A DNA stretch of 64,000 bases from an uncultured Verrucomicrobiae bacterium. Its GTDB lineage: Bacteria; Verrucomicrobiota; Verrucomicrobiia; Chthoniobacterales; JAFAMB01. This document shows, piece after piece, positions 49,125 to 64,000 of the stretch; the first letter of the stretch is position 1, and every line of letters begins with the position of its first letter. The position numbers and the translations under genes were made by a program. The notes under the pieces were generated by a model, which was not told the DNA's origin, made no database searches, and saw nothing but the letters and a program-made list of their open reading frames with translations. The stretch spans positions 767,989-831,988 of the forward strand of contig CAVZKG010000001.1 of assembly GCA_963775805.1 (NCBI GenBank), read 5' to 3'.

Positions 49125-50144
49125 GTGCCCAAACCCGCATCCAAGTCGCTAAAGATCGAATCGCCAACGTTCACCGAGCCGATGATGGCCAAGTTGGTTG
49201 CGGACAGACGACACGGTGATTGGATCTATGAGATCAAGCACGACGGCTATCGGGCCTTAGTCTTAATCGACGGGAAAGAGATCAAAGCTCTCTCCAGAAA
49301 CGAGAATGATTTCGGCGCGAGATTTCCTGAGGTCATCCAGTCATTCTCCAAATTAAAGGTTTCCGACGCGATCATCGACGGCGAAATTGTGGCTTTAGAT
49401 AAACAAGGCAGGTCGTCATTCCAACTGCTGCAGCAGTACTTCATGGGAAAACAGAAACCTCCCCTCGCCTTTTACGGCTTTGATCTTCTACGATTGAACC
49501 AAAAGGATTTGAAACAGCTGCCGATAGAAGAGCGAAAAGCAAAGCTGGAAATGTTGCTAAAAAATCCACCCGGAATCATTCGCTATTCGGTTTCGTTCAC
49601 CGAGAACATCGACGCTCTTCTGGACAAAATCCGCGAACTTGGTCTTGAGGGATTGATTGGTAAGCGATCCGGTTCAAAATACGAACCGGGACAACGCAGT
49701 GGTACGTGGATTAAACTCAAAGTTCTCCACCAACAGGAATTTGTGATTGGTGGGTTTACTCCACCGGATGGCTCACGCAAATACTTTGGAGCCATACTTG
49801 TCGGAGTCTACGAAGGTAAAGACTTCAAATTCAGCGGCCGTGTCGGCACAGGTTTCGATGAGATAACTCTGAAAAATCTCTATACTCAATTGAAGGAAAT
49901 CGCGACCGATAAACCTGTCTTTGTCAATCTCCCAAAGGGCGGAGGAAGTCGCTGGGATAAAGGTCTAACAGCAGCTGAAATGAGACACAGCACGTGGGTA
50001 AAACCGAAGATCGTCTGCCAGGTTAAGTTCACAGGCTGGACCCAAGATGATCGCCTCCGACAACCCGTTTACCTTGGGCTACGGGAGGACAAAAATCCCG
50101 GCGAAATTATCAGGGAAAACGCGCCAACAGTGGGTGATCGATAA
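49125..50144 (+). CDS. ligD: ATP-dependent DNA ligase (LigD ligase-domain type)
   Basis: Motif I EIKHDGYR (KxDG), [13 protein letters not shown]. The size matches a ligase-only LigD. The listed start is GTG; ATG alternatives lie at MMAKL. Confidence 0.8.
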
Positions 50145-50836
50145 GTTCTCGCGTCGCCGCGCGCGGCGAATTCCCATTCCGCTTCCGTAGGCAACCGCTT
50201 GCCGGCCCACTTCGCGTAAGCAACGGCATCGGTATAGCAAACCTGCACCACCGGATACTTTTCTTTTCCCTGTAACTCGCTATCCGGCCCGGTAGGATGC
50301 CGCCAGTTAGCTCCCTTAACATAACGCCACCACTGAGAGTAATCATTCAGTGGCACCGGTTGCGCGGTGGGTGTGAAGACCATGGAACCGGCCACCAGGT
50401 TTTCCGGCGGAGCCGTGGGGAACTGCTCTTTCGTCGGCGCAATCTCCGCCACAGTCACGTAGCCGGTAGCGTTGACGAATTTTGCAAATTCCTCGTTGGT
50501 CACATCGGTTTTATCCATCCAGAATCCGTCTACATAAACTCGGTGGATGGGTTGCGCATCGTTCACGGCGTTCATGGTGGCCACAGTGCAGAAACCGGTC
50601 GATGGTAGTTTACAGCCCATCGAGAATTCACCACCCGGTATCCAGACCATGCAATTGGGCGCGTTATTGGGTACGGGGAGTTTGTTGGGAACCGTCGGGG
50701 CGAAGCCCGATCCATCGATGGCTGGTGCACCTTCATCTGCCGAGCTAGCCGGTGAAAGCCATGCCACGCTCAAGACGACTAGCGTGAACGTTCCGAACAA
50801 AAAGGCGGCAGGTAAGTGGGCCTTTGTCAAAGTCAT
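50141..50836 (-). pseudogene. formylglycine-generating enzyme (FGE/SUMF1) gene, 3'-truncated
   Basis: [54 protein letters not shown]. Homology ends within ~10 nt of the ligD stop. The C-terminal ~100 aa that carry the catalytic Cys pair are missing. Confidence 0.75.
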
Positions 50837-51017
50837 GACTATCGGTCTGAAATATACTGAGGGTTTTTCGCGGCTGTGGCCAAGCGTGATAACCGTCGGC
50901 GCCATGATTGCTAGTTTTGTATTACTCGCACAAGCACTAAAAACCATTCCCGTCGGCACGGGCTACGCTGTGTGGACGGGGATTGGAGCAGCAGGCACAG
51001 CTGTGATCGGAATGCTA
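50835..51017 (+). pseudogene. internal fragment of an SMR (EmrE/SugE-type) efflux gene
   Basis: [61 protein letters not shown] aligns with the TM1-end to TM3 core of EmrE. Homology stops at 51017. Confidence 0.7.
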
Positions 51018-51021
51018 CGGG

Positions 51022-51601
51022 GCCGATCCGGGCAAAGGTGTAGGCCATCACTCCGAGAAGCGTGCGGTCGCGTAAGCCAATGACAGTGGTTACATCGATG
51101 CCGTCCAGGAGTTGTTGGACTTTTTCAGTTGGTGGTGCCGACGTCTTACCTACGACTCGGGAAAATCTGGGCGTTTGAACCTCTCTGGCTGGATTCATAC
51201 CCAGGATGCCCTTTTCGGTCAGGTAGCTGAACAGCATCCGGATGGCGGCCATGTGTGTTGCTTAATTGTTGCGCGGGATCCGCCGTGGCCTTCGATGTAG
51301 GCGGCAACGTGGATTGGCTCGAGATCTTCAAGGTGACGAAAGCCGGCCTGATCAGCCCAGTGAAGGAACTGTTTGATCGCTCGATGGTAAGCCATCCGTG
51401 TATTTTGGTTTCGGATGCGAACGCCAAAAAATCGATATATCGTTTAACGGTTTCCGTTCCGCCTTGGGCGACGATGGCGGGAACTGGCAATGCTACTTCG
51501 GGCCGGTACGTCCTCAGTTCGGCATAACTGCTCCTGTGGCCGCCGTTCTCTCTAGTCGATCGAAAGATCCGCCGATTCTGGATTTGGCGAAGGCGCGCCA
51601 A
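51022..51601 (-). pseudogene. tyrosine integrase N-terminal half, multiply frameshifted, catalytic domain deleted
   Basis: Three frames are needed: AQGGTETVKRYIDF | FGVRIRNQNTRMAYHRAIKQFLHWADQAGFRHLEDLEPIHVAAYIEGHGGSRATIKQH | AAIRMLFSYLTEKG...[21 protein letters not shown]. The shifts lie at the A6 run (51426-51431) and near 51250. Confidence 0.75.
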
Positions 51602-53951
51602 TATATTTCACGGTTACTTTCTCGATTTTGCCTGTGAACTTAAAGGGCGCGCGTTCGGCATAGTCGAGCGACACGGGCGAGCCGAGGTCTTCGCCGACAT
51701 CGAAGGTCTCCGAGGCAGTGAAGAGTGCCGGTACCGTGTTGCCGATCTTTCCGCCGCCGACCCTCTGTCCGTTGACACGCAAGGTGACGGTGGCGGAAGT
51801 ACCGCGCTTTTGCGGATCGTCCATCACAGTTTCGATCTCGATTTTTACTTTGCCGGTCGCGATGGGGCCGTCGCTCTTGACCTTGTATCGGTTCATCGTC
51901 ATGGCGTTGTACTCTAGGTGTAGTTCGCCTTTATCGAGGAATACGGTAAATCCTGCCGAGATGCCGCCGACGGCGAAGATTACGCCGCTGGCACCTTGGG
52001 GGATCTCAGCATCTACGGTGGCGAGCGTCGAGCGGTTCTTGAAGCTGGGTGCGAGGGTTTCGCCGATGCGATTCTGTCCTTCGTAAAAGGTCCACTGGGT
52101 CAGAGGGGAGACACGCATCTGGAGCGGGTTGAGGAGGATGTAAAGGCCGCCGCCCACAGGGAAGACATGATTGTTCGCAGCCTCGATGGTGAAGAGTTCT
52201 TTCATCGCGGCTAGCTTCGCAGGCTCCTTCGCGGCGAGGTCATCGGCTTGCGAGAAGTCGTCGTCGATATGGTAAAGCTCCCACACATCCTGGTCCGGGG
52301 TCCAGGTCATAACCTTCGACAGATCAGGACGCCACGGCACTTTCGGACCGAAGGCAGAGGCCATCCAACCATCATGATAAATGCCACGGCTGCCCATGAT
52401 CTCGAAATACTGGGTATGTTTGCGATCCGCGGCCTTGGCGTCAGCGAAACTATACACCATCGAGATACCATCGAGCGGGTCTTGCGGCACACCATCCACG
52501 GTCCGGGGCGGGGTGATGTTGAGGATTTCGTAGATCGTTGGTGCGATATCATTCACGTGCGTAAACTGCGGACGCGGTGTCTTTTCTGGCTTGATTCCCT
52601 TCGGCCACGAGATGGCAAGCGGAGTACGCGTGCCGCCAAAGTGCGAGGCGATGAGCTTGGTATATTTCAGCGGCGTATCGCCAGCCCATGCCCAACCGTG
52701 ATGATACATGTTATCGACCTCCGGGCCACCCAATGCGTCGAGGCCGCCGTAGTCCTGGTCAAGCACTTTAATTTGCTGGTCGACCGTAGTTAAAATGCCA
52801 TTTTGCGCTAACAGTTCAGAGATGGTGCCGTTCACGCCTTCACCGGACGCGCCATTGTCCGAACAAATGTAGAGGATCATTGTATTGTCGCGGATGCCCT
52901 CGGCCTCCAACTCATCAACTATCTTCCCGAACTGTGCATCGGTATGCTCGAGGAACCCCGCATATACCTCCATCAGGCGCGACTGAAACGCTCGCTGGTT
53001 CTGCGGAATGCTCTCCCACGAATCCACGATATCCGGCCTCGGCGTCAGCTTTGCGTTCGCGGGAACCCAGCCCAGCTCCTTCTGTCGAGCAAAGGTTTCC
53101 TCGCGCAGCTTCTCCCAGCCTTGATCGAACTTCCCTTTGTACTTGTCCGCCCACTCCTTCTGGACTTGATGCGGTCCGTGCACCGCACCGGGCGCGAAAT
53201 ACATGAAAAAGGGCCTTTCCGGGCTTAGCGCGCGATTTAGCCGCATCTGCGCGATCGCTTTTTTCGCCAGGTCCACGGTCAGGTGGTAACTCGGATCATG
53301 ATGGGGAGGCTCGACCGGAATATTACTTTCAAACAGTCGCGGCTCGTATTGAGAAGTCTCGCCCGCCATAAAGCCGTAGAAATAGTCGAAACCCAAGCCC
53401 GTCGGCCAATTATCGAACGGCCCGAGCTTCGTGACCTCACTCGGAGGGGTGTTGTGCCATTTGCCGAACGCCCACGTGGTGTAACCGTATTCCGAGAGCA
53501 CCCGCGCAATTGTTGCTGAAGTGCGCGGAATGATGCCCGTGTAACCGTCCCAATCATTCGCGAGCTCAGAGATCTGCCCGTTTCCGACGCGATGATGGTT
53601 GCGCCCGGTAAGCAGCGACGCGCGCGTAGGCGAGCACATAGCGCAAGTGTGGAAACGGTTGTAAGCAATGCCCGAATCGTAAATGCGCGAAAGTGTGGGC
53701 GTATGAATCGGGCCGCCAAAGGTGTCGTAGTTGCCGTACCCGGCATCATCCACAAGGAAGATAATGAGGTTCGGCGCGTCCTTTGGCAGCCGGTTAGGCG
53801 TTTGTCGCCAATGATGAACGGATTCCTGCATCGAACGCCCTGCCGTGCTACTAGATGGGGCCTCGGGAAAGGGCAGGCTTTCCTGAGCGAACCCAGAGAA
53901 TGCGCCCAGCCCAAAAGCCAGTGCAAGAATGTTTATTGGTGCGAACTTCAT
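51552..53951 (-). CDS. Cys-type arylsulfatase (large form)
   Basis: Signal peptide MKFAPINILALAFGLGAFSGFAQE, LIIFLVDDAGYGN, and the C-x-P-x-R motif CSPTRASLLTGRNHH. 799 aa. Confidence 0.9.
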   Translation of the reverse strand: MKFAPINILALAFGLGAFSGFAQESLPFPEAPSSSTAGRSMQESVHHWRQTPNRLPKDAPNLIIFLVDDAGYGNYDTFGGPIHTPTLSRIYDSGIAYNRFHTCAMCSPTRASLLTGRNHHRVGNGQISELANDWDGYTGIIPRTSATIARVLSEYGYTTWAFGKWHNTPPSEVTKLGPFDNWPTGLGFDYFYGFMAGETSQYEPRLFESNIPVEPPHHDPSYHLTVDLAKKAIAQMRLNRALSPERPFFMYFAPGAVHGPHQVQKEWADKYKGKFDQGWEKLREETFARQKELGWVPANAKLTPRPDIVDSWESIPQNQRAFQSRLMEVYAGFLEHTDAQFGKIVDELEAEGIRDNTMILYICSDNGASGEGVNGTISELLAQNGILTTVDQQIKVLDQDYGGLDALGGPEVDNMYHHGWAWAGDTPLKYTKLIASHFGGTRTPLAISWPKGIKPEKTPRPQFTHVNDIAPTIYEILNITPPRTVDGVPQDPLDGISMVYSFADAKAADRKHTQYFEIMGSRGIYHDGWMASAFGPKVPWRPDLSKVMTWTPDQDVWELYHIDDDFSQADDLAAKEPAKLAAMKELFTIEAANNHVFPVGGGLYILLNPLQMRVSPLTQWTFYEGQNRIGETLAPSFKNRSTLATVDAEIPQGASGVIFAVGGISAGFTVFLDKGELHLEYNAMTMNRYKVKSDGPIATGKVKIEIETVMDDPQKRGTSATVTLRVNGQRVGGGKIGNTVPALFTASETFDVGEDLGSPVSLDYAERAPFKFTGKIEKVTVKYIGAPSPNPESADLSID

Positions 53952-54477
53952 AGTTTCCTTGCGCTGTGTTTGCTTTTAGCAGGCGCTCGGATATAGGACT
54001 CTAGTCCCATTCCTCGACTGAATTTGGTGTAGGGTTCCCAGGCGTCCATCTCGGAAAAGTGTCAGACAGTCTCGGACGAAATGGAAGCCTAATTCAGTTG
54101 AACTTTCGGCCTCTCTGCTGCGGTTGTGCGATTTGAAGGAGAGGTTGGTCTTCCAGTACCGGTTTTGCCGTAAAACGAGCTGTAATCGAGTTCTGGAGCG
54201 TTTTCTTTTAGTCGGATGATTCTTGGAAGGCCTAAGCGTACGATTTTTTCCGTTTCGTGAGCCGACCCCTTATAGGAATAGACGTTTTAAGGCACTGCGT
54301 CCTTACCTACGACGGGCCAAACAAGGTTTTTACGCTCGATTTCTAAACGTCTTCGCCGCCATCAAGCATGTCTTCCGGCGTAAACACCTTGATACGCCGG
54401 TCAAGCTCATTCATGAAATCCTCGCCCCGCAGTTGGCCTTCGTTGTTTGGCCATCGGTCACGGTTCTTAGGTCAGCC

Positions 54478-54927
54478 TCAAGTATGGCGACCGGCTAGAC
54501 CCACCATAAGATTATCGATGAAATCCGAATGCTCTGGATCGTGCAAATAAGGGCGTGCAAATTCCTCTGCCTGCTTATTTATCCGTCTTCCTTTCTTACT
54601 ATCGCCAGCGATGTCATCGGCAATCTGTTTTTTAGATTCGCAAACAAATTCATGCGGTAACGTTAAACCTCCTGCGCGCATTTTACCCAATGCCCAAGCC
54701 TCAGCCTCAAACTCCCTTAGGTGATACGGCTTTCTCTTATCGTGCCTATGAAGGAAAAAATGGGCGCATTCGTGCAGATACGTCCGTAGGTTCTGTAGCG
54801 AGTTGGGCCTGGGCACGAACATCATCATCTTGCAGTAGCAAGCTCTTCCGGGTTCCAAGGGGTCTTTGAGGTAGCACACTAGAACGTTCGGAGGCGTGTG
54901 CTCCTTAGCGACTCTATAAAGGTTCAC
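54478..54927 (-). CDS. ImmA/IrrE-like (HExxH) metallopeptidase
   Basis: YLHECAHFFLHRH (HExxHxxxH) is followed by EFEAEAWAL, as in M78-like ImmA/IrrE peptidases. The GTG start overlaps the RHH-gene stop (GTGA). Confidence 0.6.
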   Translation of the reverse strand: MNLYRVAKEHTPPNVLVCYLKDPLEPGRACYCKMMMFVPRPNSLQNLRTYLHECAHFFLHRHDKRKPYHLREFEAEAWALGKMRAGGLTLPHEFVCESKKQIADDIAGDSKKGRRINKQAEEFARPYLHDPEHSDFIDNLMVGLAGRHT

Positions 54928-55106
54928 TCCGCCTCCTGCAGCTTCTTAGCCATCTCGTCAATAACAGCGCCAAGCGTAATACCCCCTCGCTCTCCTTGCG
55001 CCCGCAGTTTGCGCGCGGTCTCGGCGTCTACGCGCGTTGAGATTGCGATTTTCACAAAGATTGACGCTTGCCGTTTGCAATCCGTACAGAATGTATTACT
55101 TACCAT
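54924..55106 (-). CDS. ribbon-helix-helix (CopG-like) DNA-binding protein
   Basis: KIAISTRVDAETARKL...GITLGAVIDEMAKKL fits a beta-strand plus two-helix RHH pattern. It may start at the internal GTG (VKIAIS). Confidence 0.5.
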   Translation of the reverse strand: MVSNTFCTDCKRQASIFVKIAISTRVDAETARKLRAQGERGGITLGAVIDEMAKKLQEAE

Positions 55107-55166
55107 GATCCCTATCCCCAGAACGGCGGTAGGGTTTTTTCATTTCATCATAAGAGGAAAAATCCA

Positions 55167-55472
55167 ATGACCACCAAGGTTTATCGAGTTTACTGCACCG
55201 CAGGAACACCAATCACTAGGTCGCCAGACACTCCCAGAAAGATGATTACCGTTCAATTTCTGGATGACACCGTGCAAGGGATGCCGAGCGTTGAAGCCCA
55301 GAGAAAAGCCATTGAATACGGGAGAACTCTTCTACGGAATGAGATCCTGAGCGATCCCCAGTTCAAAAGCGGTTTTGGTTGGGAAGCGCGAAGAGAAGAG
55401 GTTGATATTTCGGAGTACGAGTACGCGACTCCGAATCTGCAAACCGCCAGAGCAAGGGCTTGGTTTAATTAA
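55167..55472 (+). CDS. hypothetical protein
   Basis: Purine-rich AAGAGGA lies just upstream of ATG 55167. 101 aa, divergent from the RHH/peptidase pair, no family recognised. Confidence 0.5.
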   Translation: MTTKVYRVYCTAGTPITRSPDTPRKMITVQFLDDTVQGMPSVEAQRKAIEYGRTLLRNEILSDPQFKSGFGWEARREEVDISEYEYATPNLQTARARAWFN

Positions 55473-55500
55473 GCCAAGCTCGGAACAGATCAGCCACGGC

Positions 55501-55743
55501 ATGAAACCCATGTATGAAATTGCCGCCACCGTCACTACCGCAACCGAAAAGGAAGGAATAAAGCTAACGGCTGATTGGCCGCTTGCTTGGTTGCAGGGAA
55601 ACGGTTCCACCACGATCCTCCGAAAACTCTTACCAAGCGAACCTTCACCGGCTCTCGCCGAGCCCGTTCAACGCCTAGAAATCGGTGGCTATAACCGGCC
55701 AGAGTTGCGCCTCGGTGACCGGGTGATGGTCCAGCTTTTTTAA
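55501..55743 (+). CDS. hypothetical protein
   Basis: 80-aa ORF from ATG 55501. It is followed by the hairpin CCTCGA-TTTT-TCGAGG (55752-55767). No family recognised. Confidence 0.4.
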   Translation: MKPMYEIAATVTTATEKEGIKLTADWPLAWLQGNGSTTILRKLLPSEPSPALAEPVQRLEIGGYNRPELRLGDRVMVQLF

Positions 55744-57411
55744 CTCCAGGGCCTCGATTTTTCGAGGTAGTGGTGAAGAACGAATATGGATGCTTATTGG
55801 GTCTTATCGCAGCTGATATCAGTTTCGGAGTTATTCATGACCGAGCAAACCGGCCAACCCCAGCCAGACAGAGCGAGGTTGTGAATAACTCCGCCGCCGG
55901 CGAAAATAGTGCCGGCGGACGTCCTGCCTCGGCTCGATCACGGTCATATCGCAGCGATCCCAAGAGGATCAAGGGAAGACGACCGGGCGAGCCGAAGGCC
56001 CTTGCTCCGACATCTAATAGAAAGGCGCCTCAAGAAGGCCATAATATCAGCTTGGTGGATAGCAGGGCAAAGCGACGCAAAAACCAAAGCCAGCAAAGGC
56101 AAACCATGAATGACTCCGAGCATTGGAAGCAGCACCGGGCATATGGCGCTTTGGATTGGGCAAGCGAAAAGCACTCCGTTATCGTTGTCGATCAAGCTGG
56201 TAAAGTGATCGAAGACTTCGAGATCGAACAGTCGGCTTTAGGTTGGAAGAAGTTTCGGGAAAAACTCCAGCCTTACAGCTCGATTCCTTTTGCCATCGAG
56301 ACCAGTCAGGGAGCGGCAGTCGAGCAGTTGTTGGAAGCCGGTATGATCGTTTATCCGCTCAATCCCAAGAGCGCTCAGGCCTACCGCGAACGCAAAGCCC
56401 CCAGTGGGGTTAAAGACGATCGACTGGATGCTTGGAGTTTTGCCGACGCCTTGCGGGTTGATGGCCAAGACTGGAAAGCACTCCGGCCAGAGGAGCCGCT
56501 GATCAAAGAACTGCGTTTACTCTGTCGCGATGAAGTTAGCCTCATCGAACAACGCACCGCTTTTATTAGCCAGCTGCGCCATGCCTTGGCAGAATATTAC
56601 CCCGCCGCATTAGAGGCCTTCGAGGATTGGACTTCGGTCTCGGCCTGGATGTTTTTGCAGCGTTTTCCCAGCCCCGAGCTGCTGGCCCTGGCCGGTAAGC
56701 GACAATGGCAGAAGTTCCTACACAGTCGCCGGCTCTGGGGCAGCGACCAGGGGCCTCGCCGCATGGAGATCTTCGCTCATGCGACCGAGCTGAGTGGGAG
56801 CGCGCCCACCGTCAAAGCCAAGAGTCTTCTGGCCCTAAGTCTAGTGAAGATGCTCTTTGTCATTGAAAAGCAATTGGCAGTCTATCGCCAACGAATCGAA
56901 GAGCTCTTCGCTCGTCATCCTGATCATGATCTATTCGGTTCCTTGCCAGGCGCCGGCCCGAAGATCGCTCCGCGGTTGCTCTCCGAGATTGGCGATGACC
57001 GCGAACGATTCGACGGCGATGCCCGAATTTTACAATGCTATGGCGGAACCGCCCCGGTGACCAAACGCTCCGGGAAATATCGTCACTGCCATCAACGTTG
57101 GGCCTGTGACAAACACCTCCGCCACGCCCTCCATCTTTTTGCTGAGAAGAGTCTGTCCCGTTGTGTGTGGGCCCAGACTTACTATCAGCATCACCGCCAA
57201 AAGGATCGCAGTCACGCTAATGCTCTGCGCCGACTCGGTCACCGCTGGCTCAAAATCATTCACAAGATGTGGATGGATCGAACCCTATACGACCCAGAGC
57301 TCCATCACCGCAATCAACTCCAACACGGCTCTTGGATCTTTCAGTTAAAAGAATGTTAATAACCCATGATTTTTTCGCTTGAAGACCGATAGAAAGTCTT
57401 CCCTTGTGTAG
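55744..57411 (+). mobile_element. IS110-family insertion sequence (ends approximate)
   Basis: A single DEDD-type transposase gene with a ~360-nt non-coding leader. The right limit is inferred from where homology of the flanking OYE fragment ends (~57412). No terminal inverted repeats are expected for this family. Confidence 0.5.
56106..57359 (+). CDS. IS110 family transposase
   Basis: DEDD_Tnp_IS110 N-domain (YGALDWASEKHSVIVVD, FAIETSQG, DRLDAWSFAD) and Transposase_20 C-domain (LGSLPGAGPKIAPRLLSEIGD, GTAPVTKRSGK). Start ATG 56106. Confidence 0.9.
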   Translation: MNDSEHWKQHRAYGALDWASEKHSVIVVDQAGKVIEDFEIEQSALGWKKFREKLQPYSSIPFAIETSQGAAVEQLLEAGMIVYPLNPKSAQAYRERKAPSGVKDDRLDAWSFADALRVDGQDWKALRPEEPLIKELRLLCRDEVSLIEQRTAFISQLRHALAEYYPAALEAFEDWTSVSAWMFLQRFPSPELLALAGKRQWQKFLHSRRLWGSDQGPRRMEIFAHATELSGSAPTVKAKSLLALSLVKMLFVIEKQLAVYRQRIEELFARHPDHDLFGSLPGAGPKIAPRLLSEIGDDRERFDGDARILQCYGGTAPVTKRSGKYRHCHQRWACDKHLRHALHLFAEKSLSRCVWAQTYYQHHRQKDRSHANALRRLGHRWLKIIHKMWMDRTLYDPELHHRNQLQHGSWIFQLKEC

Positions 57412-60447: not shown

Positions 60448-61800
60448 TCAGAAACGTTGAGCTAGCTCGTTAGCGACAGCTACCGCATCTCGAACGAACT
60501 GCTGCGCTTGGACTGACGAAGGATCATATGCATAAATGGACTGGTCGACTACCTTCCTCGCCTTCTCTTGCAATTCGGGGATCGAGCGTATCAGTTCGCT
60601 CGGAAAGCGTGTGTCGTACTCAAGTCTCTTGAGACTGAACATGATGTCGGCTGAAGTAGGGTGAGTATTGCCGCTTTGGACATTAGCCGCTCCCAAGATA
60701 GCACTGCCCAGCTCACTCCAAGTTTCGCGAATAGCAGCTCTAGGATTCTTTTTAGCTAGTTCGATGAGTTCAGATGACCGCTGGTCCGAAACCATTGGAC
60801 CGTAAGGTGTACGTACGGAGGTGCGAGTAGGTTGGTCGTCAAGGAAAGGAGGGTTGCCAGGCTGCAGCGGTCCCAAGGGCGGGGGCTTTGGCCCGGTCCC
60901 AAGAATCGTTGTCAGCAAATCCGAATAGCCCTGTTCGTATCGGGCTGCGTCACTGAGGTCGACGTAACGCTTGCCCAGAAGCCAAGACGGAGCCGCTTCG
61001 ACCCAGGCGCCTCTGGCGAGAAGCGGAATGAACTTTCTGTGATTTTGCTTTGCTAGAACCTCGGCTGTCATGATGTCGCCTTCGTAACCCACCCCGCCAG
61101 TTCGAGCTTCCGATTTGGTTTTGTACTTAGGAGTACAGATCACGAGGACGTAATCGTTGTCGCGGATTTCGCGCTCCATGAATTCCGGTAATTGATCGCC
61201 GGGGACAGTGTGCCAGTGGTCTAGACGAACATCGATGCCATCCGTTCGAAGACGCGTCGCGAGGTCTCGTACCCATTTCTTATGCGTTTCGTCGTCCCAG
61301 GAATAAGAGATGAAGGCTGTTTTATGAAGTGGCATTGAAGAAGGGCGCAGCACGTCGGCCTGTATGGGTTCCTTTTGTAGTTCGATTATTGAGGCGCGGA
61401 GCGGGAGCAGGTTAGAGTAGAGGTGCCCAAATATGTGGTCCACTTTCTGAGCTATAGCTGGTTCCTGGCCGGGATCATAGTGAGGTGGTACGACATTACC
61501 TTTTTGGGGTTGGCATTTGATTGGTAATTCTTTGGCGAGCTTGTAAAGAGATTCCACATCCGCCCAAACCGCCTGACGAAAGGAAGCCGGCATGGTCTCG
61601 AATACCGGAGCCGATCTGTCGTCGCCAAAAATGCGCAAGAAATCCACAACTTTTTGAAGGTTGTCGCGGATAGGTGCGGTTGCATCGTACTTACCACGCT
61701 CGATATTCCTTAACTGCATTTCTGCGAGTGGCGTATCTCTGTCCGGAAATCGATCAACGACCTCACATAGATTTTTGATTGTCGATCTGGTCTCGTCCAT
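60448..61800 (-). CDS. three-domain TIR (SEFIR/TIR_2-like) protein
   Basis: Central KTAFISYSWDDETHKKWVRDLATRLRTDGIDVRLDHW...DYVLVICTPKY...GGVGYEGD (about nt 60901-61323). It also has a ~155-aa N-terminal region, a Pro-rich linker and a ~110-aa helical C-domain. The ATG lies 2 nt after the integrase-remnant stop. Confidence 0.75.
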   Translation of the reverse strand: MDETRSTIKNLCEVVDRFPDRDTPLAEMQLRNIERGKYDATAPIRDNLQKVVDFLRIFGDDRSAPVFETMPASFRQAVWADVESLYKLAKELPIKCQPQKGNVVPPHYDPGQEPAIAQKVDHIFGHLYSNLLPLRASIIELQKEPIQADVLRPSSMPLHKTAFISYSWDDETHKKWVRDLATRLRTDGIDVRLDHWHTVPGDQLPEFMEREIRDNDYVLVICTPKYKTKSEARTGGVGYEGDIMTAEVLAKQNHRKFIPLLARGAWVEAAPSWLLGKRYVDLSDAARYEQGYSDLLTTILGTGPKPPPLGPLQPGNPPFLDDQPTRTSVRTPYGPMVSDQRSSELIELAKKNPRAAIRETWSELGSAILGAANVQSGNTHPTSADIMFSLKRLEYDTRFPSELIRSIPELQEKARKVVDQSIYAYDPSSVQAQQFVRDAVAVANELAQRF

Positions 61801-61802
61801 GG

Positions 61803-62141
61803 TCAGTACCGAATCCTTTCAACATCTTCACGGAGGACGACCTGTTGCCGGCGGTCGTAAAGTTTAGTCGTTCGGCTGTCGGCGTGGTCGGCAATATTCT
61901 GCGCTCCCTCAAGCGTTCCACCTTCCTCAAGAAAGCGAGTGAGTCCGCTGGCACGGAAAGAGTGCGGCGAGTAGGTACCCACAATCCCGGCTTGCGCTAG
62001 ACGGCGTTTCAGCATTCGGGCGGCATCAATCCTGGTCATCGGTCTACTACCAAGTTCCCGGCCCAGCGAGGCAAGGCTCTACTGAAAGTCAGGTTACTCT
62101 CTAATACGGGCTACTCCGTTGGTTCCACGATGCCAAAGCAC
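61803..62141 (-). pseudogene. tyrosine integrase C-terminal remnant
   Basis: FSRALPRWAGNLVVDRMTRIDAARMLKRRLAQAGI...HSFRASGLTRFLEEGGTLEGAQNIADHADSRTTKLYDRR parallels the copy at 63566. The frame is closed by TAA at 62142-62144 and overlaps the 3' end of ORF 62101..62775. Confidence 0.75.
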
Positions 62142-62775
62142 TTAACGCTTCATTTAGTCGCTCTTTTGCCTCCTTTTTGATTTGGTCAGTGCCTTTCCAC
62201 GGTCGGGTGGGTTCATTGCGCAGCGCTGTTTCCGATTCATAAACATATATTGTGAATTGCTTAATGGCGTCCGTCGCTTCCGCGAAGGCATTGGCGTCTA
62301 CTAGCTTGCTTAATTCGTTAGCGCTATGCTCGGATTTAGGGTCAGGCTTCCCGGTTAAGATCAGGCTTTCCAAGCCATTGTTGATCTCGACTATCCATCG
62401 TGAAGCGTTTAGATAATTTTGGACGTCCGCCTTGGCTATTTCTGCACGCGCAGTGGTGGATCGAGCGTTTGCCATAGTCCAGTCGGCGGTGCATTTTGCG
62501 CTTAAAAGCGCTCCACATACCGCTGCGACAATGGTTAGCAGCGGCACAACGTAGTCTTTCCACCAATCCCTCTTTGGTCTATCGACGACGCCTTTAAGCG
62601 CGGCGACTTCGCTTTTCACGCTTCCGATATCTGTTTTTATCTCTTGCAGCCCTGCTGTTACTAGGGACGATAGCTCCGAAAGCTCCAATACTGGTACCGC
62701 CGGGATCACAGCAGGCGATACGGAAGATTCCTTCGACGGAGGGTTCCCCGACGACGGTGCAGTTGGCGTGGACAC
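62101..62775 (-). CDS. single-pass membrane hypothetical protein
   Basis: GTG start preceded by AAGGA. One TM helix (YVVPLLTIVAAVCGALLSA) sits between a coiled-coil-like N-region and a helical C-region. No family recognised. Confidence 0.55.
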   Translation of the reverse strand: MSTPTAPSSGNPPSKESSVSPAVIPAVPVLELSELSSLVTAGLQEIKTDIGSVKSEVAALKGVVDRPKRDWWKDYVVPLLTIVAAVCGALLSAKCTADWTMANARSTTARAEIAKADVQNYLNASRWIVEINNGLESLILTGKPDPKSEHSANELSKLVDANAFAEATDAIKQFTIYVYESETALRNEPTRPWKGTDQIKKEAKERLNEALSALASWNQRSSPY

Positions 62776-62785
62776 AGAAATCCTT

Positions 62786-63283
62786 TTATTGTTTGATCTG
62801 ATCCCAGGGAATCAGTTTAAAGCGAGGATCGCTAGCGGGTATGTCGCGAGGGGGACTTGCAGCAAGCGCATTTGCAATTTCAAGCCAATGGGGAACATCA
62901 TAGAAGTTTTTATTTTTTGCAGTTACCCATTCCGCTTCGGAAACGCGCGGTATTTCTTGCAGAAGCTTATTGTACGCCTCGCTGTCTGTAGTTATGTAAT
63001 GGCCATCACAACACTTCCAGCAGGTTGGACTGAGCTTTTCGGCGGGGCTGCAGCAATCTTGTTTGGTTGTAGCCCCAACAAAAATCCTGGCGACTAGGGG
63101 CGAATCGGCGCGGTAAGCCTGATTCACTATTGAAGCATCAATGGCGTACGCGTGTTGCTCTTTTTTTGCACTATCCAAAGTACCGACGAGCACTTTCGCA
63201 TCAGATTGCTGTGCGCCTGCCCTTCCTAGTGCAGAGAATGCAACACACGACAGAACTGCGATTGCCATTGAGCGCGATTTCAT
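62786..63283 (-). CDS. secreted Cys-rich hypothetical protein
   Basis: Signal peptide MKSRSMAIAVLSCVAFSALGRAGA and a CC..C..CC cluster (KQDCCSPAEKLSPTCWKCCDGHY). It lies 10 nt upstream of the next ORF. Confidence 0.55.
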   Translation of the reverse strand: MKSRSMAIAVLSCVAFSALGRAGAQQSDAKVLVGTLDSAKKEQHAYAIDASIVNQAYRADSPLVARIFVGATTKQDCCSPAEKLSPTCWKCCDGHYITTDSEAYNKLLQEIPRVSEAEWVTAKNKNFYDVPHWLEIANALAASPPRDIPASDPRFKLIPWDQIKQ

Positions 63284-63434
63284 AACGATCGGACGTGAAG
63301 ACTACCAAACCTTGAGTGCTTGCCTCCAGTTTAGAATCGTTTTATTCGCGACCCTTTCCTGTCCGCTCGTCAAATCGATGAGACACCGGACCAGCTTATG
63401 AAAACGCTCATGGTCTATCCATGACTCCTTTGCC

Positions 63435-63460
63435 CTGCCCGACCAGGGACGGTCGGGCAG
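63435..63460. other. perfect 10-bp-stem hairpin
   Basis: CTGCCCGACC-AGGGAC-GGTCGGGCAG, about 105 nt downstream of the integrase stop. No U-tract on either strand. Confidence 0.5.
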
Positions 63461-63565
63461 GCGAAAAGGCGAAGGACTGCAAGGTAAGAGCTAAAGCCGA
63501 CGCTCCAGATTGGCCCAGGATCGACGTTTCCGAGTGACCCGCTATCCTGACACACCCGGCTTTTT

Positions 63566-64000
63566 TTAGATCGCAATCCGCTCTATTTCGTCGAGTGAAA
63601 TCTCGTCCTGTCGCCGATCGTAGAGTTTGGTGGTCCGCGGTGATTCGTGGTTGGCGATTTGCTGCGCGACTTCGAGTTTGCCGCTGTTCTTCAGATACGC
63701 CGTGATGCCGGTCGCGCGGAAGGTATGATTGCCAATCCGCGTTTCGATGCCGGCCGCTTTCGCGCGCCGGCGGATGATGCGGTGCGCGTCCTGTTGGAAG
63801 AGGGGATTGGTGGTAAGCTGGCCGGTCTTACGGCGGGCGCTGCGGAAAAGATAGCCGTCGACGTCATCGGCGATGCCGGTCGCTTCGATATAATCGTGCA
63901 GACACTGATCGAGACGATGATGACAGGGAACATCGTGCTCCTTGCCGCCTTTCTCATGCAGGCGCACCCAACGGCGGCGCCCCTGGACAAAATAGTCGCC
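63566..64000 (-). CDS. tyrosine integrase, 5' part beyond the window
   Basis: The frame is open to the window edge (DYFVQGRRRWVRLHEKGGKEHDVPCHH...HTFRATGITAYLKNSGKLEVAQQIANHESPRTTKLYDRRQDEISLDEIERI). The catalytic H-x-x-R and Tyr regions are present. Confidence 0.8.
   Translation of the reverse strand, partial: GDYFVQGRRRWVRLHEKGGKEHDVPCHHRLDQCLHDYIEATGIADDVDGYLFRSARRKTGQLTTNPLFQQDAHRIIRRRAKAAGIETRIGNHTFRATGITAYLKNSGKLEVAQQIANHESPRTTKLYDRRQDEISLDEIERIAI

What the first reader, a model, noticed from the sequence alone, without database searches (positions are those of the whole stretch)
60448..61800. Integrase-adjacent three-domain TIR protein with none of the known TIR-system partners
The 450-aa ORF has a central TIR/SEFIR-like core (FISYSWDD..HKKWV..LA..L...GIDVRLDHW...VLVICTPKY...GGVGYEGD). 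The Glu of GYEGD sits where NADase TIRs carry their catalytic Glu, though this needs an alignment. The core is flanked by an unassignable ~155-aa N-domain and, after a Pro-rich linker, a ~110-aa helical C-domain that is only loosely DUF4145-like. Its ATG is 2 nt after the stop of an integrase remnant, so it was the first cargo gene behind that integrase. Bacterial TIR proteins act in Thoeris, CBASS and SPARTA-type anti-phage systems. However, no ThsA (SIR2/SLOG), CD-NTase or short Argonaute gene is visible anywhere in the window. This points to a single-gene system, or a new pairing, with novel sensor domains.
Basis: partly seen in the sequence, partly recalled or inferred. Interest (0 to 1): 0.8.

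Follow-up and report, generated by a model that had tools for sequence, protein, structure and literature searches.

The report
Variant bSEFIR anti-phage NADase gene
This gene encodes a member of the already described single-gene bacterial SEFIR anti-phage family (NAD+-depleting), but with an unusual build: an extra, unannotated N-terminal helical domain that is also found fused to other defence-type effectors, and a rare C-terminal helical domain.

Summary
The 450-aa ORF (window 60448-61800, minus strand) is real. It is intact, under purifying selection, and starts 2 nt after the stop of a 5'-truncated tyrosine-recombinase gene. Its core (aa 158-305) is a bacterial SEFIR domain, not an orphan TIR: PADLOC bSEFIR E=3e-67, B. 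cereus SEFIR structure 5Y8E E=1e-22, and 5Y8E is the top Foldseek hit. bSEFIR is a published single-gene defence system that depletes NAD+, so the lack of ThsA, CD-NTase or Argonaute is expected. The motif Glu (E240) is invariant in the family.

What differs is the architecture. Canonical bSEFIR has SEFIR at the N-terminus. Here a 146-aa helical domain precedes it, with no Pfam, PADLOC or PDB match by sequence or fold. That domain recurs in about 25 protein clusters, always N-terminal. There it is fused to TIR, Pycsar-type TIR, Schlafen, alpha/beta-hydrolase or membrane modules, or a nucleotide cyclase.

The C-domain (aa 338-450) is helical and rare (about 8 clusters), also occurs stand-alone, and gave no DUF4145 hit.

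A relative keeps an intact integrase with the same 2-nt junction. A closely related integrase in another contig carries Shedu plus an N-domain-TIR gene.

Verdict: new variant of a known kind; moderate interest.

The parts
60448..61800 (-). Complete gene for the 450-aa N-domain / SEFIR / C-domain protein (stop codon 60448-60450)
   Evidence: ORF list. PADLOC bSEFIR hit at 3.2e-67. dN/dS 0.20 against the L002 orthologue. Identical copy in L091.
61363..61800 (-). N-terminal helical domain, aa 1-146, with seven helices. Invariant residues are R35, Y38, D39, I44, R45, L48, P71 and C96 (motif RGKYD...IR...KCQ...VVPP). It is an unannotated, recurrent N-terminal module.
   Evidence: No Pfam hit at E<=10. 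Exhaustive phmmer found 25 representative clusters, always with the domain at the N-terminus. Alignment invariants. AlphaFold2 pLDDT 88.4 and pTM 0.81. No PDB match by sequence or by fold (best E 1.3). Fusion partners in homologues are listed.
60886..61329 (-). SEFIR (STIR-superfamily) domain, aa 158-305; the predicted NADase effector
   Evidence: PADLOC bSEFIR covers aa 154-352. PDB 5Y8E/5Y8F at E=1e-22; profile search 1e-32. Foldseek top hit is 5Y8E with target-normalised TM 0.75-0.78. The core is 57-70% identical to the best 80 of at least 520 matching loci in GTDB species-representative genomes.
61081..61083 (-). Codon of Glu240 in GGVGYEGD; candidate catalytic residue
   Evidence: Read directly from the sequence. 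Aligned to the Glu of B. cereus SEFIR. Motif present in the top 120 homologues and invariant in alignment A6.
61219..61221 (-). Codon of Asp194 in LDHWH. It is the probable equivalent of the SEFIR-SEFIR interface Asp (D40) whose mutation abolished defence in the tested Bacillus bSEFIR.
   Evidence: Invariant in A6. D40A result from the Millman preprint.
60790..60885 (-). Pro-rich disordered linker, aa 306-337 (GPKPPPLGPLQPGNPPFLDDQPTRTSVRTPYGP)
   Evidence: pLDDT below 50 at aa 316-330. The PPPLGP motif is conserved across the SEFIR clade. The FLDDQPTRxSVR stretch is conserved with the C-domain module.
60451..60789 (-). C-terminal five-helix domain, aa 338-450; a rare module occupying the position of the variable C-terminal (sensor) domain of bSEFIR proteins
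   Evidence: pLDDT 76-95 and helical. The word-indexed search found only 5 further clusters, besides P0002 and P0003. Stand-alone 172-aa versions occur in three samples. No Pfam hit, including DUF4145. It is one of at least 10 C-region types among the top 120 homologues.
61803..62060 (-). 5'-truncated tyrosine-recombinase gene (C-terminal ~85 codons retained; the listed ORF is 61803-62039). Its stop codon lies 2 nt before the SEFIR ATG.
   Evidence: Pfam Phage_integrase 2.4e-8. tblastn matches aa 183-267 of the L002 integrase fragment at 88% identity. DNA homology to L002 starts near 62055. The retained sequence differs by 1 aa from the L003 integrase C-terminus.

Best explanation
The gene encodes a single-polypeptide abortive-infection protein of the bacterial SEFIR (bSEFIR) family, carried as cargo directly behind the integrase of a small integrative element.

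Proposed mechanism:
1. In uninfected cells the central SEFIR domain is held inactive.
2. A phage-derived cue is recognised by one or both flanking helical domains.
   - The C-domain sits where the hypervariable sensor domain of other bSEFIR proteins sits.
   - The N-domain is a shuffled module also found on other effectors.
3. Recognition drives SEFIR-SEFIR self-association, which involves the conserved Asp194 surface.
4. [quoted passage not shown]
5. NAD+ is depleted and phage replication stops.

Shown here: domain identities, conservation, purifying selection, modular domain swapping, the integrase linkage, and the absence of known partner genes.

Taken from the literature on a Bacillus homologue: phage defence, NAD+ depletion, loss of defence in the D40A mutant, and capsid escape mutants.

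Inferred: which domain senses, what the trigger is, the role of E240, and oligomerisation.
For: **SEFIR identity**
- PADLOC bSEFIR gives 3.2e-67 (226 bits).
- B. cereus SEFIR 5Y8E/5Y8F gives E=1e-22 by sequence and 1e-32 by profile, and is the top Foldseek hit.

**Published function of bSEFIR**
- It is a single-gene defence system and its D40A mutant is dead.
- It depletes NAD+ through the SEFIR domain, and the phage NARP1 pathway overcomes it.
- SEFIR is listed among the NAD+-depleting domains that yield ADPR and nicotinamide.
- Phage escape mutations map to the capsid protein.

**Conservation and selection**
- The GGVGYEG Glu and the LDxWH Asp are invariant.
- All three domains are under purifying selection, with dN/dS 0.16-0.29.

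**Modularity typical of a sensor plus effector**
- There are at least 10 C-region types and 7 N-extension types around a 57-78% identical core.
- The N-domain is fused elsewhere to:
  - TIR_2, CAP12/Pycsar-type TIR, Schlafen AlbA_2, alpha/beta-hydrolase, FGE-sulfatase and YkuD;
  - PADLOC PDC-S35-type TIR;
  - a class III nucleotide cyclase and another TIR_2.

**Single-gene status**
- No other ORF in the window hits a PADLOC defence model.
- The flanks differ between the window, L002 and L001.

**Mobile, defence-type context**
- In L002 an intact integrase meets the gene at the same 2-nt junction.
- In L003 an integrase about 84% identical to the L002 fragment is followed by Shedu SduA (8e-20) and an N-domain-TIR gene.
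- The +-2 neighbours of SEFIR genes in 37 GTDB loci include restriction-modification (RM) and other defence genes.
Against: - No experiment exists for this protein or for this architecture.
- The SEFIR domain is not N-terminal, as it is in the family definition used by Millman et al..
- Only positions 33-215 of the 412-position PADLOC profile are matched.
- Pfam scores TIR_2 above SEFIR.
- Alignments to NADase TIRs do not reach E240, so its catalytic role rests on family conservation only.
- In this window the gene is not in a defence island.
- The upstream integrase is truncated, and no promoter-like site was found upstream of the gene. Expression is therefore unproven.
Confidence: 0.68

Rival explanations
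1. Two-component system with a distant partner. Under this reading the N-domain is an adaptor, like the effector-associated domains (EADs) that Aravind's group described from memory. It would dock the SEFIR effector onto a separately encoded sensor carrying a matching domain, for example a STAND NTPase encoded outside this window. The SEFIR protein would then be only the effector arm.
For: - The N-domain is always at the extreme N-terminus.
- It is swapped between many unrelated effector types: TIR, SEFIR, Schlafen, hydrolase or membrane modules, and a cyclase. That is the distribution expected of an adaptor.
- The protein already has a C-terminal domain in the usual sensor position, so the N-domain could have a different role.
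Against: - None of the 25 representative N-domain proteins carries an NTPase or another recognisable sensor fused to the domain.
- An HMM search of the six-frame window found no second N-domain copy.
- No neighbour is conserved between the loci.
- There is no Pfam EAD or Death-like hit at E<=10.
Confidence: 0.15
2. Signal-generating rather than NAD+-depleting enzyme. The SEFIR domain would make a nucleotide-derived second messenger, such as a cADPR isomer as Thoeris ThsB does, for an effector encoded elsewhere.
For: - The domain belongs to the TIR superfamily.
- There are weak hits to ThsB-type and Thoeris type III models: ThcB4 at E=0.014, and ThsB1 at 6e-4 for the homologue P0004.
- The N-domain is also fused to a nucleotide cyclase in L007.
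Against: - The published bSEFIR depletes NAD+ as a single protein.
- No ThsA, SLOG, SIR2 or other receptor-effector is in the window.
- The Thoeris hits fall far below the curated cut-offs (14 bits against 220).
Confidence: 0.07
3. Not an immune protein. It would be either a SEFIR-mediated protein-protein interaction scaffold for ordinary physiology, as was proposed before 2022 for bacterial SEFIR, or a module that stabilises the mobile element, or an inactive leftover of a decayed element.
For: - The integrase upstream is truncated, and the surrounding 15 kb is a patchwork of element remnants and metabolic genes.
- In this window there is no defence island.
- The earlier scaffold hypothesis of Yang et al. 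2018 is cited.
Against: - The ORF is intact, with dN/dS 0.2 in all domains.
- The candidate catalytic and interface residues are invariant.
- Defence has been demonstrated for the family.
- The related integrase in L003 carries Shedu, a bona fide defence gene.
Confidence: 0.1

Closest known systems
bSEFIR single-gene anti-phage system (Millman et al. [quoted passage not shown]
   Same: - The SEFIR core is highly similar (226 bits).
- The Asp and Glu are conserved.
- It is a single polypeptide with a variable non-catalytic domain after the SEFIR domain, and no partner genes.
- It is expected to deplete NAD+ to ADPR and nicotinamide.
   Different: - The SEFIR domain is central rather than N-terminal, preceded by a 146-aa helical domain absent from the profile.
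- The C-terminal half of the profile (positions 216-412) is not matched.
- The C-domain belongs to a rare type of about 8 clusters.
B. cereus SEFIR domain crystal structure (PDB 5Y8E/5Y8F; Yang et al. 2018)
   Same: Best sequence and fold match for aa 158-305. The GGVGxE motif is shared.
   Different: The crystallised fragment is the isolated domain. It says nothing about the flanking domains or about activation.
The main environmental SEFIR clade: ~300-315-aa proteins with an N-terminal SEFIR, a PPPLG linker and a ~150-aa C-domain (e.g. P0034)
   Same: The SEFIR core and PKPPPLGP linker are 60-78% identical. The clade is found in at least 520 GTDB species-representative genomes across many phyla.
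   Different: - 80 of 114 close homologues share one C-domain type that is unrelated to this one.
- 86 of 105 have no N-terminal extension.
- The N-domain and C-domain HMMs are absent from the 80 best genome loci.
N-domain fusion proteins (P0126/L003 N-domain-TIR_2; P0128 N-domain-Pycsar-type TIR; P0134 N-domain-Schlafen; L007 N-domain-cyclase; P0132/P0137 N-domain-hydrolase)
   Same: They share the ~140-aa N-terminal helical domain at 31-61% identity, with the invariant RGKYD...IR...C motif.
   Different: The effector moiety differs. Only the window protein (and its identical copy in L091) and P0002 combine this domain with SEFIR.
Thoeris ThsB, CBASS/Pycsar TIR effectors, and SPARTA TIR-APAZ
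   Same: They share the TIR-superfamily fold and NAD+-directed chemistry.
   Different: - The required partners or fused domains (ThsA, CD-NTase or cyclase plus a SAVED/cNMP sensor, APAZ plus short Argonaute) are absent.
- Profile hits are marginal, with E between 0.005 and 0.02.

Membership tests
bSEFIR (Millman 2022 / PADLOC PDLC03957) | A SEFIR-type STIR domain that matches bacterial SEFIR better than generic TIR | tested here: met
   - PADLOC bSEFIR gives 3.2e-67.
- PDB SEFIR 5Y8E gives 1e-22, against 5e-3 for the best TIR.
- The Foldseek top hits are 5Y8E and 5Y8F.
- Caveat: with Pfam HMMs, TIR_2 (78 bits) outscores SEFIR (54 bits).
bSEFIR (Millman 2022 / PADLOC PDLC03957) | SEFIR domain located at the N-terminus of the protein (the selection rule stated in the paper's methods) | tested here: not met
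   SEFIR spans aa 158-305, behind a folded 146-aa domain. The rule is quoted. Among close homologues, 86 of 105 meet it and 8 have extensions longer than 100 aa.
bSEFIR (Millman 2022 / PADLOC PDLC03957) | Conserved Asp of the SEFIR-SEFIR interface (D40 in the tested protein; D40A abolishes defence) | tested here: inconclusive
   Asp194 in LDHWH is invariant in A6 and aligns with the Asp of ILDRWH in B. cereus SEFIR.
bSEFIR (Millman 2022 / PADLOC PDLC03957) | Full-length match to the family profile, including its C-terminal half | tested here: not met
   Only profile positions 33-215 of 412 are matched. The same holds for all six other close SEFIR homologues tested, whatever their C-domain (positions 28-245 at most). 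The C-terminal half is therefore not conserved even within the family.
bSEFIR (Millman 2022 / PADLOC PDLC03957) | Works as a single gene, with no conserved partner | tested here: met
   - No PADLOC defence hit among the other 63 window ORFs.
- Downstream flanks differ between the window, L002 and L001.
- The only conserved neighbour is the integrase.
bSEFIR (Millman 2022 / PADLOC PDLC03957) | Phage defence through NAD+ depletion | not testable with these tools
   This needs phage challenge and NAD+/ADPR measurement.
NADase-type TIR domains | Catalytic Glu at the structurally equivalent position | tested here: inconclusive
   - E240 is invariant in bacterial SEFIRs. It lies at the start of helix 238-251, after the third strand (aa 217-222) and a short helix.
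- HMMER alignments to PdTIR, BtTir and AbTir end at aa 226-230.
- Model coordinates could not be superposed residue by residue.
- The Glu is not conserved in the non-enzymatic human Act1 SEFIR.
Thoeris | ThsB-type TIR together with a ThsA (SIR2/SLOG or equivalent) effector gene | tested here: not met
   The NCBIfam ThcB4 hit scores 14 bits against a cut-off of 220. No ThsA or SIR2 hit is found in the window.
SPARTA / short pAgo TIR-APAZ | TIR fused to APAZ and encoded next to a short Argonaute | tested here: not met
   The Aga_TIR models hit only the TIR part, at E=0.005-0.017. There is no Argonaute in the window.
DUF4145 (for the C-domain) | Match to Pfam PF13643 | tested here: not met
   A Pfam scan of the isolated C-domain at E<=10 returned only a chance DUF945 hit. 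A fold-level comparison of the isolated C-domain could not be run.
Effector-associated / Death-like adaptor domains (for the N-domain) | Match to a described EAD, bDLD or TRADD-N family, and presence of the same domain on a STAND NTPase | tested here: not met
   - No Pfam hit at E<=10.
- No PDB fold match.
- No NTPase fusion among the 25 representatives.
- Only the distribution pattern resembles these domains.

The most novel reading that the evidence does not exclude
The 146-aa N-terminal helical domain (RGKYD...IR...KCQ...VVPP) would define an undescribed family of phage-sensing or trigger-receiving modules. This family is shuffled among at least six effector classes: SEFIR, TIR, Pycsar-type TIR, Schlafen nuclease, hydrolase or transmembrane effectors, and a nucleotide cyclase. 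The window protein would then be a dual-input SEFIR NADase, with two independent flanking sensor domains (N and C) gating one effector. This architecture has not been described for bSEFIR. In this lineage it travels as the single cargo gene of a minimal integrase-plus-defence element.
Probability: 0.3. Interest if true: 0.55.

Novelty: new variant of a known kind. Interest (0 to 1): 0.4.

Why it matters
bSEFIR is known from essentially one tested Bacillus protein. How it senses phage and how the SEFIR domain is switched on remain open.

- **A natural dissection tool.** This variant combines an almost invariant SEFIR core with two swappable flanking domains. Close relatives differ in only one of them: P0003 has the same C-domain but a different N-domain.
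- **A new domain family.** The N-domain family links SEFIR, TIR, Schlafen, hydrolase and cyclase proteins through one unannotated module. That module could be added to defence-gene catalogues and might point to a shared trigger.
- **Annotation.** These genes should be labelled bSEFIR-like rather than orphan TIR.

The finding does not change the current picture of TIR/SEFIR immunity.

Tried and rejected
1. **DUF4145 or any Pfam assignment for the C-domain.** No hit at E<=10. The R...H spacing seen in P0002 (RKVIDQSIH) is not conserved (Y in the window, F in P0003), so a catalytic HEPN reading was dropped. This last point is by eye.
2. **Structural relatives of the N-domain.**
   - The PDB sequence profile gave a best E of 0.21.
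   - Foldseek against PDB gave a best E of 1.3 and TM below 0.4; weak plant-NLR CC-domain hits at probability 0.07-0.12 were treated as noise.
   - BFVD with the full model returned only TIR or deoxyribosyltransferase folds.
3. **N-domain relatives in genomes.**
   - A pattern scan of GTDB species representatives found none.
   - IMG/VR found none.
   - The word-indexed protein search with the N-domain profile returned only 4 proteins, far fewer than the exhaustive search.
4. **A general link between this integrase family and SEFIR genes.** tblastn of the integrases against 80 genome SEFIR loci gave one weak hit, and none was found in IMG/VR. The linkage is therefore lineage-specific.
5. **att-type repeats around the gene.** No direct repeats of 16 nt or more in 54-64 kb. 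The only tRNA is at 40.25 kb.
6. **Promoter or terminator upstream of or flanking the gene.** Counts were no higher than in shuffled sequence and no site lay upstream of the gene.
7. **The final journal version of Millman et al.** It was not held, so the exact residue tested for catalysis, if any, could not be checked.
8. **A second N-domain-bearing gene in the window.** None found.
Full report
**1. Observation**

The ORF is at window 60448-61800 on the minus strand. It is 450 aa and starts with ATG. The ATG (61800-61798) lies 2 nt after the TGA (61805-61803) of a 78-aa ORF that matches only the C-terminal third of the Pfam Phage_integrase model (positions 105-168 of 172).

The gene is not a chance ORF:
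- It has an 89%-identical, co-linear orthologue (P0002 on L002).
- An identical copy was assembled from another sequencing run (L091).
- dN/dS against L002 is 0.20 overall: N-domain 0.18, SEFIR 0.16, linker 0.18, C-domain 0.29.

**2. The core**

- Pfam gives TIR_2 at 1e-21 and SEFIR at 3.7e-14.
- The decisive result is the PADLOC model bSEFIR (PDLC03957) at E=3.2e-67. It covers aa 154-352 of the protein and positions 33-215 of the 412-position profile.
- The best solved structure by sequence is the B. cereus SEFIR domain, 5Y8E/5Y8F. It scores E=1e-22 with the protein and 1e-32 over its full length with a family profile.
- 5Y8E is also the top Foldseek hit of the AlphaFold2 model, with target-normalised TM 0.75-0.78. 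Ordinary TIR domains follow.

The bSEFIR literature says:
- bSEFIR is a published single-gene defence system. A Bacillus sp. NIO-1130 protein protects B. subtilis from phi29, and its D40A mutant is inactive (Millman et al. preprint).
- It depletes NAD+ through its SEFIR domain and is overcome by the phage NAD+-reconstitution pathway NARP1.
- SEFIR is listed among the NAD+-depleting domains that yield ADPR and nicotinamide.
- phi29 escape mutants map to the capsid protein.

The absence of ThsA, CD-NTase or Argonaute is therefore expected rather than puzzling. I confirmed that absence. Of the other 63 window ORFs of at least 90 aa, only one hits any PADLOC model at E<=1e-6, and that model is a generic oxidoreductase.

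**3. Key residues**

*Glu240.*
- The Glu of GGVGYEGD is E240 (codon 61083-61081).
- It aligns with the Glu of GGVGTE in B. cereus SEFIR.
- It is present in the motif of the 120 best homologues and is invariant in alignment A6.
- In the model it lies at the start of helix 238-251, which follows the third beta-strand (217-222) and a short helix.
- HMMER alignments to bacterial TIR NADases (PdTIR, BtTir, AbTir) end at aa 226-230. Equivalence with the TIR catalytic Glu is therefore plausible but not shown.
- The Glu is not conserved in the non-enzymatic human Act1 SEFIR. That fits a catalytic role confined to the bacterial proteins.

*Asp194.*
- Asp194 (in LDHWH) is invariant.
- By position it is the likely equivalent of the D40 interface residue. 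This is an inference.

**4. Architecture**

The AlphaFold2 model has mean pLDDT 86.6. Its pTM of 0.46 indicates no confident packing between the domains. It shows three folded units:
- N-domain, aa 1-146: seven helices, pLDDT mostly above 90.
- SEFIR, aa 158-305.
- Linker, aa 306-337: disordered and Pro-rich.
- C-domain, aa 338-450: five helices, pLDDT 76-95.

This SEFIR clade is very large, with more than 1,965 protein clusters. At least 520 loci occur in GTDB species-representative genomes, spread over Acidobacteriota, Chloroflexota, Latescibacterota, Bacteroidota, Verrucomicrobiota and other phyla. The core plus the PKPPPLGP linker is 57-78% identical throughout. What lies around the core varies:
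- 86 of 105 close homologues start with SEFIR. Only 8 have N-terminal extensions longer than 100 aa, and N-terminal regions of 60 aa or more fall into 7 unrelated types.
- The C-terminal regions fall into at least 10 unrelated types. One is dominant (80 of 114), and the type seen here has three members.
- Every close homologue tested matches the PADLOC profile only over positions 28-245.

A conserved effector with swappable flanking domains is the usual design of single-protein sensor-effector defence genes.

**5. The N-domain**

It has no hit in Pfam (E<=10), no hit in PADLOC or NCBIfam outside the SEFIR part, no PDB sequence match (best E 0.21) and no PDB fold match. The fold search used a model of the isolated domain (pLDDT 88.4, pTM 0.81) and gave a best Foldseek E of 1.3.

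It is not an orphan, though. An exhaustive phmmer search of 1.84 billion representative proteins found 25 relatives, with E from 1e-35 to 5e-4. In every one the domain is at the extreme N-terminus. The invariant residues are R35, Y38, D39, I44, R45, L48, P71 and C96, within the motifs RGKYDAT-PIR, KCQ and VVPPS.

The partners fused behind it are:
- TIR_2 (P0126, P0130, L008)
- CAP12/Pycsar-type TIR, also matching the PADLOC candidate PDC-S35 (P0128)
- Schlafen AlbA_2 (P0134)
- alpha/beta-hydrolase, with or without FGE-sulfatase or YkuD (P0131-P0133, P0137, P0138, P0143)
- hydrophobic, apparently transmembrane regions (P0135 and P0142, by eye)
- a class III nucleotide cyclase (L007)

This partner list is typical of conflict systems. 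Fusion to a cyclase (a signal generator) as well as to direct effectors argues that the N-domain acts upstream, as a trigger-receiving or regulatory domain. It argues against a second-messenger receptor.

The alternative is that it is an adaptor docking onto a separate sensor. That cannot be excluded, but no support was found:
- There is no NTPase fusion among the relatives.
- There is no second copy in the window.
- There is no conserved neighbour.

The domain was not found in GTDB representative genomes by pattern scan or in IMG/VR. Eight metagenome loci carry it.

**6. The C-domain**

- Apart from P0002 and P0003, only five more clusters share it, at 65-87% identity.
- It also occurs as a stand-alone 172-aa protein in three different samples, and in a contig with no SEFIR upstream.
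- The conserved unit includes the preceding FLDDQPTRxSVRxPYGP stretch.
- No DUF4145 or other Pfam hit was obtained.
- P0003 combines this C-domain and a 69%-identical SEFIR with an unrelated 220-aa N-terminal region. The two flanking domains are therefore exchanged independently.

**7. Genomic setting**

*The integrase and its cargo.*
- In L002 an integrase ORF of at least 267 aa, cut by the contig end, stops 2 nt before the orthologous ATG.
- DNA homology between the window and L002 starts near 62055, inside the integrase gene, and ends about 15 nt after the SEFIR stop codon.
- The conserved unit is therefore integrase plus this one gene, and in the window the integrase has lost its 5' two-thirds.
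- In L003 an intact 320-aa integrase is about 84% identical to the L002 fragment, and its last 78 residues differ from the window remnant by one residue. It is followed by a Shedu SduA gene (PADLOC 8e-20, Pfam SduA_C 5e-12) and then an N-domain-TIR_2 gene.
- In this lineage the integrase therefore carries exchangeable defence cargo directly downstream.
- The link is lineage-specific. The integrase family is not near the 80 best genome SEFIR loci and is not in IMG/VR.

*The rest of the region.*
- A second recombinase of the same family (42% identical to the L002 fragment) runs off the window end at 63566-64000.
- Two ORFs without any family hit lie between the two recombinases.
- A frameshifted N-terminal remnant of a third copy lies at 51016-51371.
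- An IS110 transposase is at 55770-57359.
- The remaining genes at 45-60 kb look metabolic or regulatory.
- Elsewhere, the +-2 neighbours of SEFIR genes in 37 genome loci include Type I and Type II RM components, mad2, Type IIG enzymes and TIR proteins. This agrees with the published defence-island enrichment.

**8. Mechanism and rivals**

*Best explanation (confidence about 0.68).* This is a single-polypeptide abortive-infection NADase of the bSEFIR family. The flanking helical domains keep the SEFIR domain off until a phage cue is bound. SEFIR-SEFIR assembly then activates NAD+ hydrolysis and NAD+ is depleted.

*Rivals.*
- An adaptor-mediated two-component system with a partner outside the window (0.15).
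- A signal-producing TIR-like enzyme (0.07).
- A non-immune scaffold or a decaying remnant (0.10).

*What is shown and what is not.* Domain identity, conservation, selection, modularity and context are shown here. Defence and NAD+ depletion come from the literature on a homologue. The sensing domain, the trigger, the role of E240 and oligomerisation are inferred.

**9. Comparison and novelty**

*Function.* It should work like bSEFIR.

*Membership.*
- Met: the SEFIR core and the single-gene criterion.
- Not met: the N-terminal position of SEFIR, and a full-length profile match.
- Untested: biochemical activity.

I file it as a new variant of a known kind. The unannotated N-domain family is the most interesting by-product. 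The interest score is 0.4. The architecture and the shuffled N-domain are new details that could help in dissecting bSEFIR activation.

Noticed in passing
window 51016-51371 (-): An N-terminal remnant of the same tyrosine-recombinase family. It is 66-69% identical to aa 1-118 of the L002 integrase fragment and has a frameshift near 51255. It lies between a sulfatase gene (51552-53951) and an FGE-sulfatase-domain ORF (50069-50959). Being less similar than the 62-kb remnant, it is probably a different decayed copy.
   Followed up: partly
window 62101-64000 (-): A second tyrosine recombinase of the same family (42% identical to the L002 fragment) runs off the window end at 63566-64000. It is followed by two ORFs with no Pfam, NCBIfam or PADLOC hit. 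One is 62786-63283 (165 aa) with a signal-peptide-like N-terminus. The other is 62101-62775 (224 aa) with one hydrophobic segment. They sit where the missing 5' part of the SEFIR-linked integrase should be.
   Followed up: partly
L003 6277-9065: A metagenome contig carries an intact 320-aa integrase about 84% identical to the L002 integrase fragment and nearly identical to the window remnant over its last 78 residues. It is followed by a 218-aa Shedu SduA/DUF4263 gene and an N-domain-TIR_2 gene. This is a different defence cargo on the same integrase backbone.
   Followed up: yes
L007 4798-6486: A 562-aa protein joins the N-domain to a class III adenylate/guanylate cyclase domain (Pfam Guanylate_cyc 1.8e-7). 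This may be a Pycsar-like signal generator using the same N-terminal module.
   Followed up: partly
L093 864-1382, L094 94-612, L095 292-810; L092 116-661: The linker plus C-domain module of the window protein also exists as a free-standing 172-aa protein in three independent samples. In another contig it is attached to a different N-terminal stretch, with no SEFIR domain upstream.
   Followed up: partly
window 53900-55700, including ORF 54478-54927 (-): A low-GC patch (48-51%, against 55-58% around it). It holds a 149-aa ORF containing an HECAH (HExxH-type) motif and a small adjacent ORF, just upstream of the IS110 transposase. There is no Pfam hit; the metallopeptidase-like reading is by eye only.
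   Followed up: no
window 55770-57359 (+): An IS110-family transposase (DEDD_Tnp_IS110 plus Transposase_20). The domain match starts at aa 128 of the 529-aa ORF, so the true start is probably further downstream.
   Followed up: no
L011-L090 (GTDB species-representative genomes): The SEFIR core plus PPPLG linker keeps 57-70% amino-acid identity across more than ten phyla, which points to extensive horizontal transfer of this effector module. Some members carry very long N-terminal regions, up to about 900 aa by longest-ORF calling, and fusions to WD40, HEAT or FGE-sulfatase domains (P0021, P0086, P0119).
   Followed up: partly
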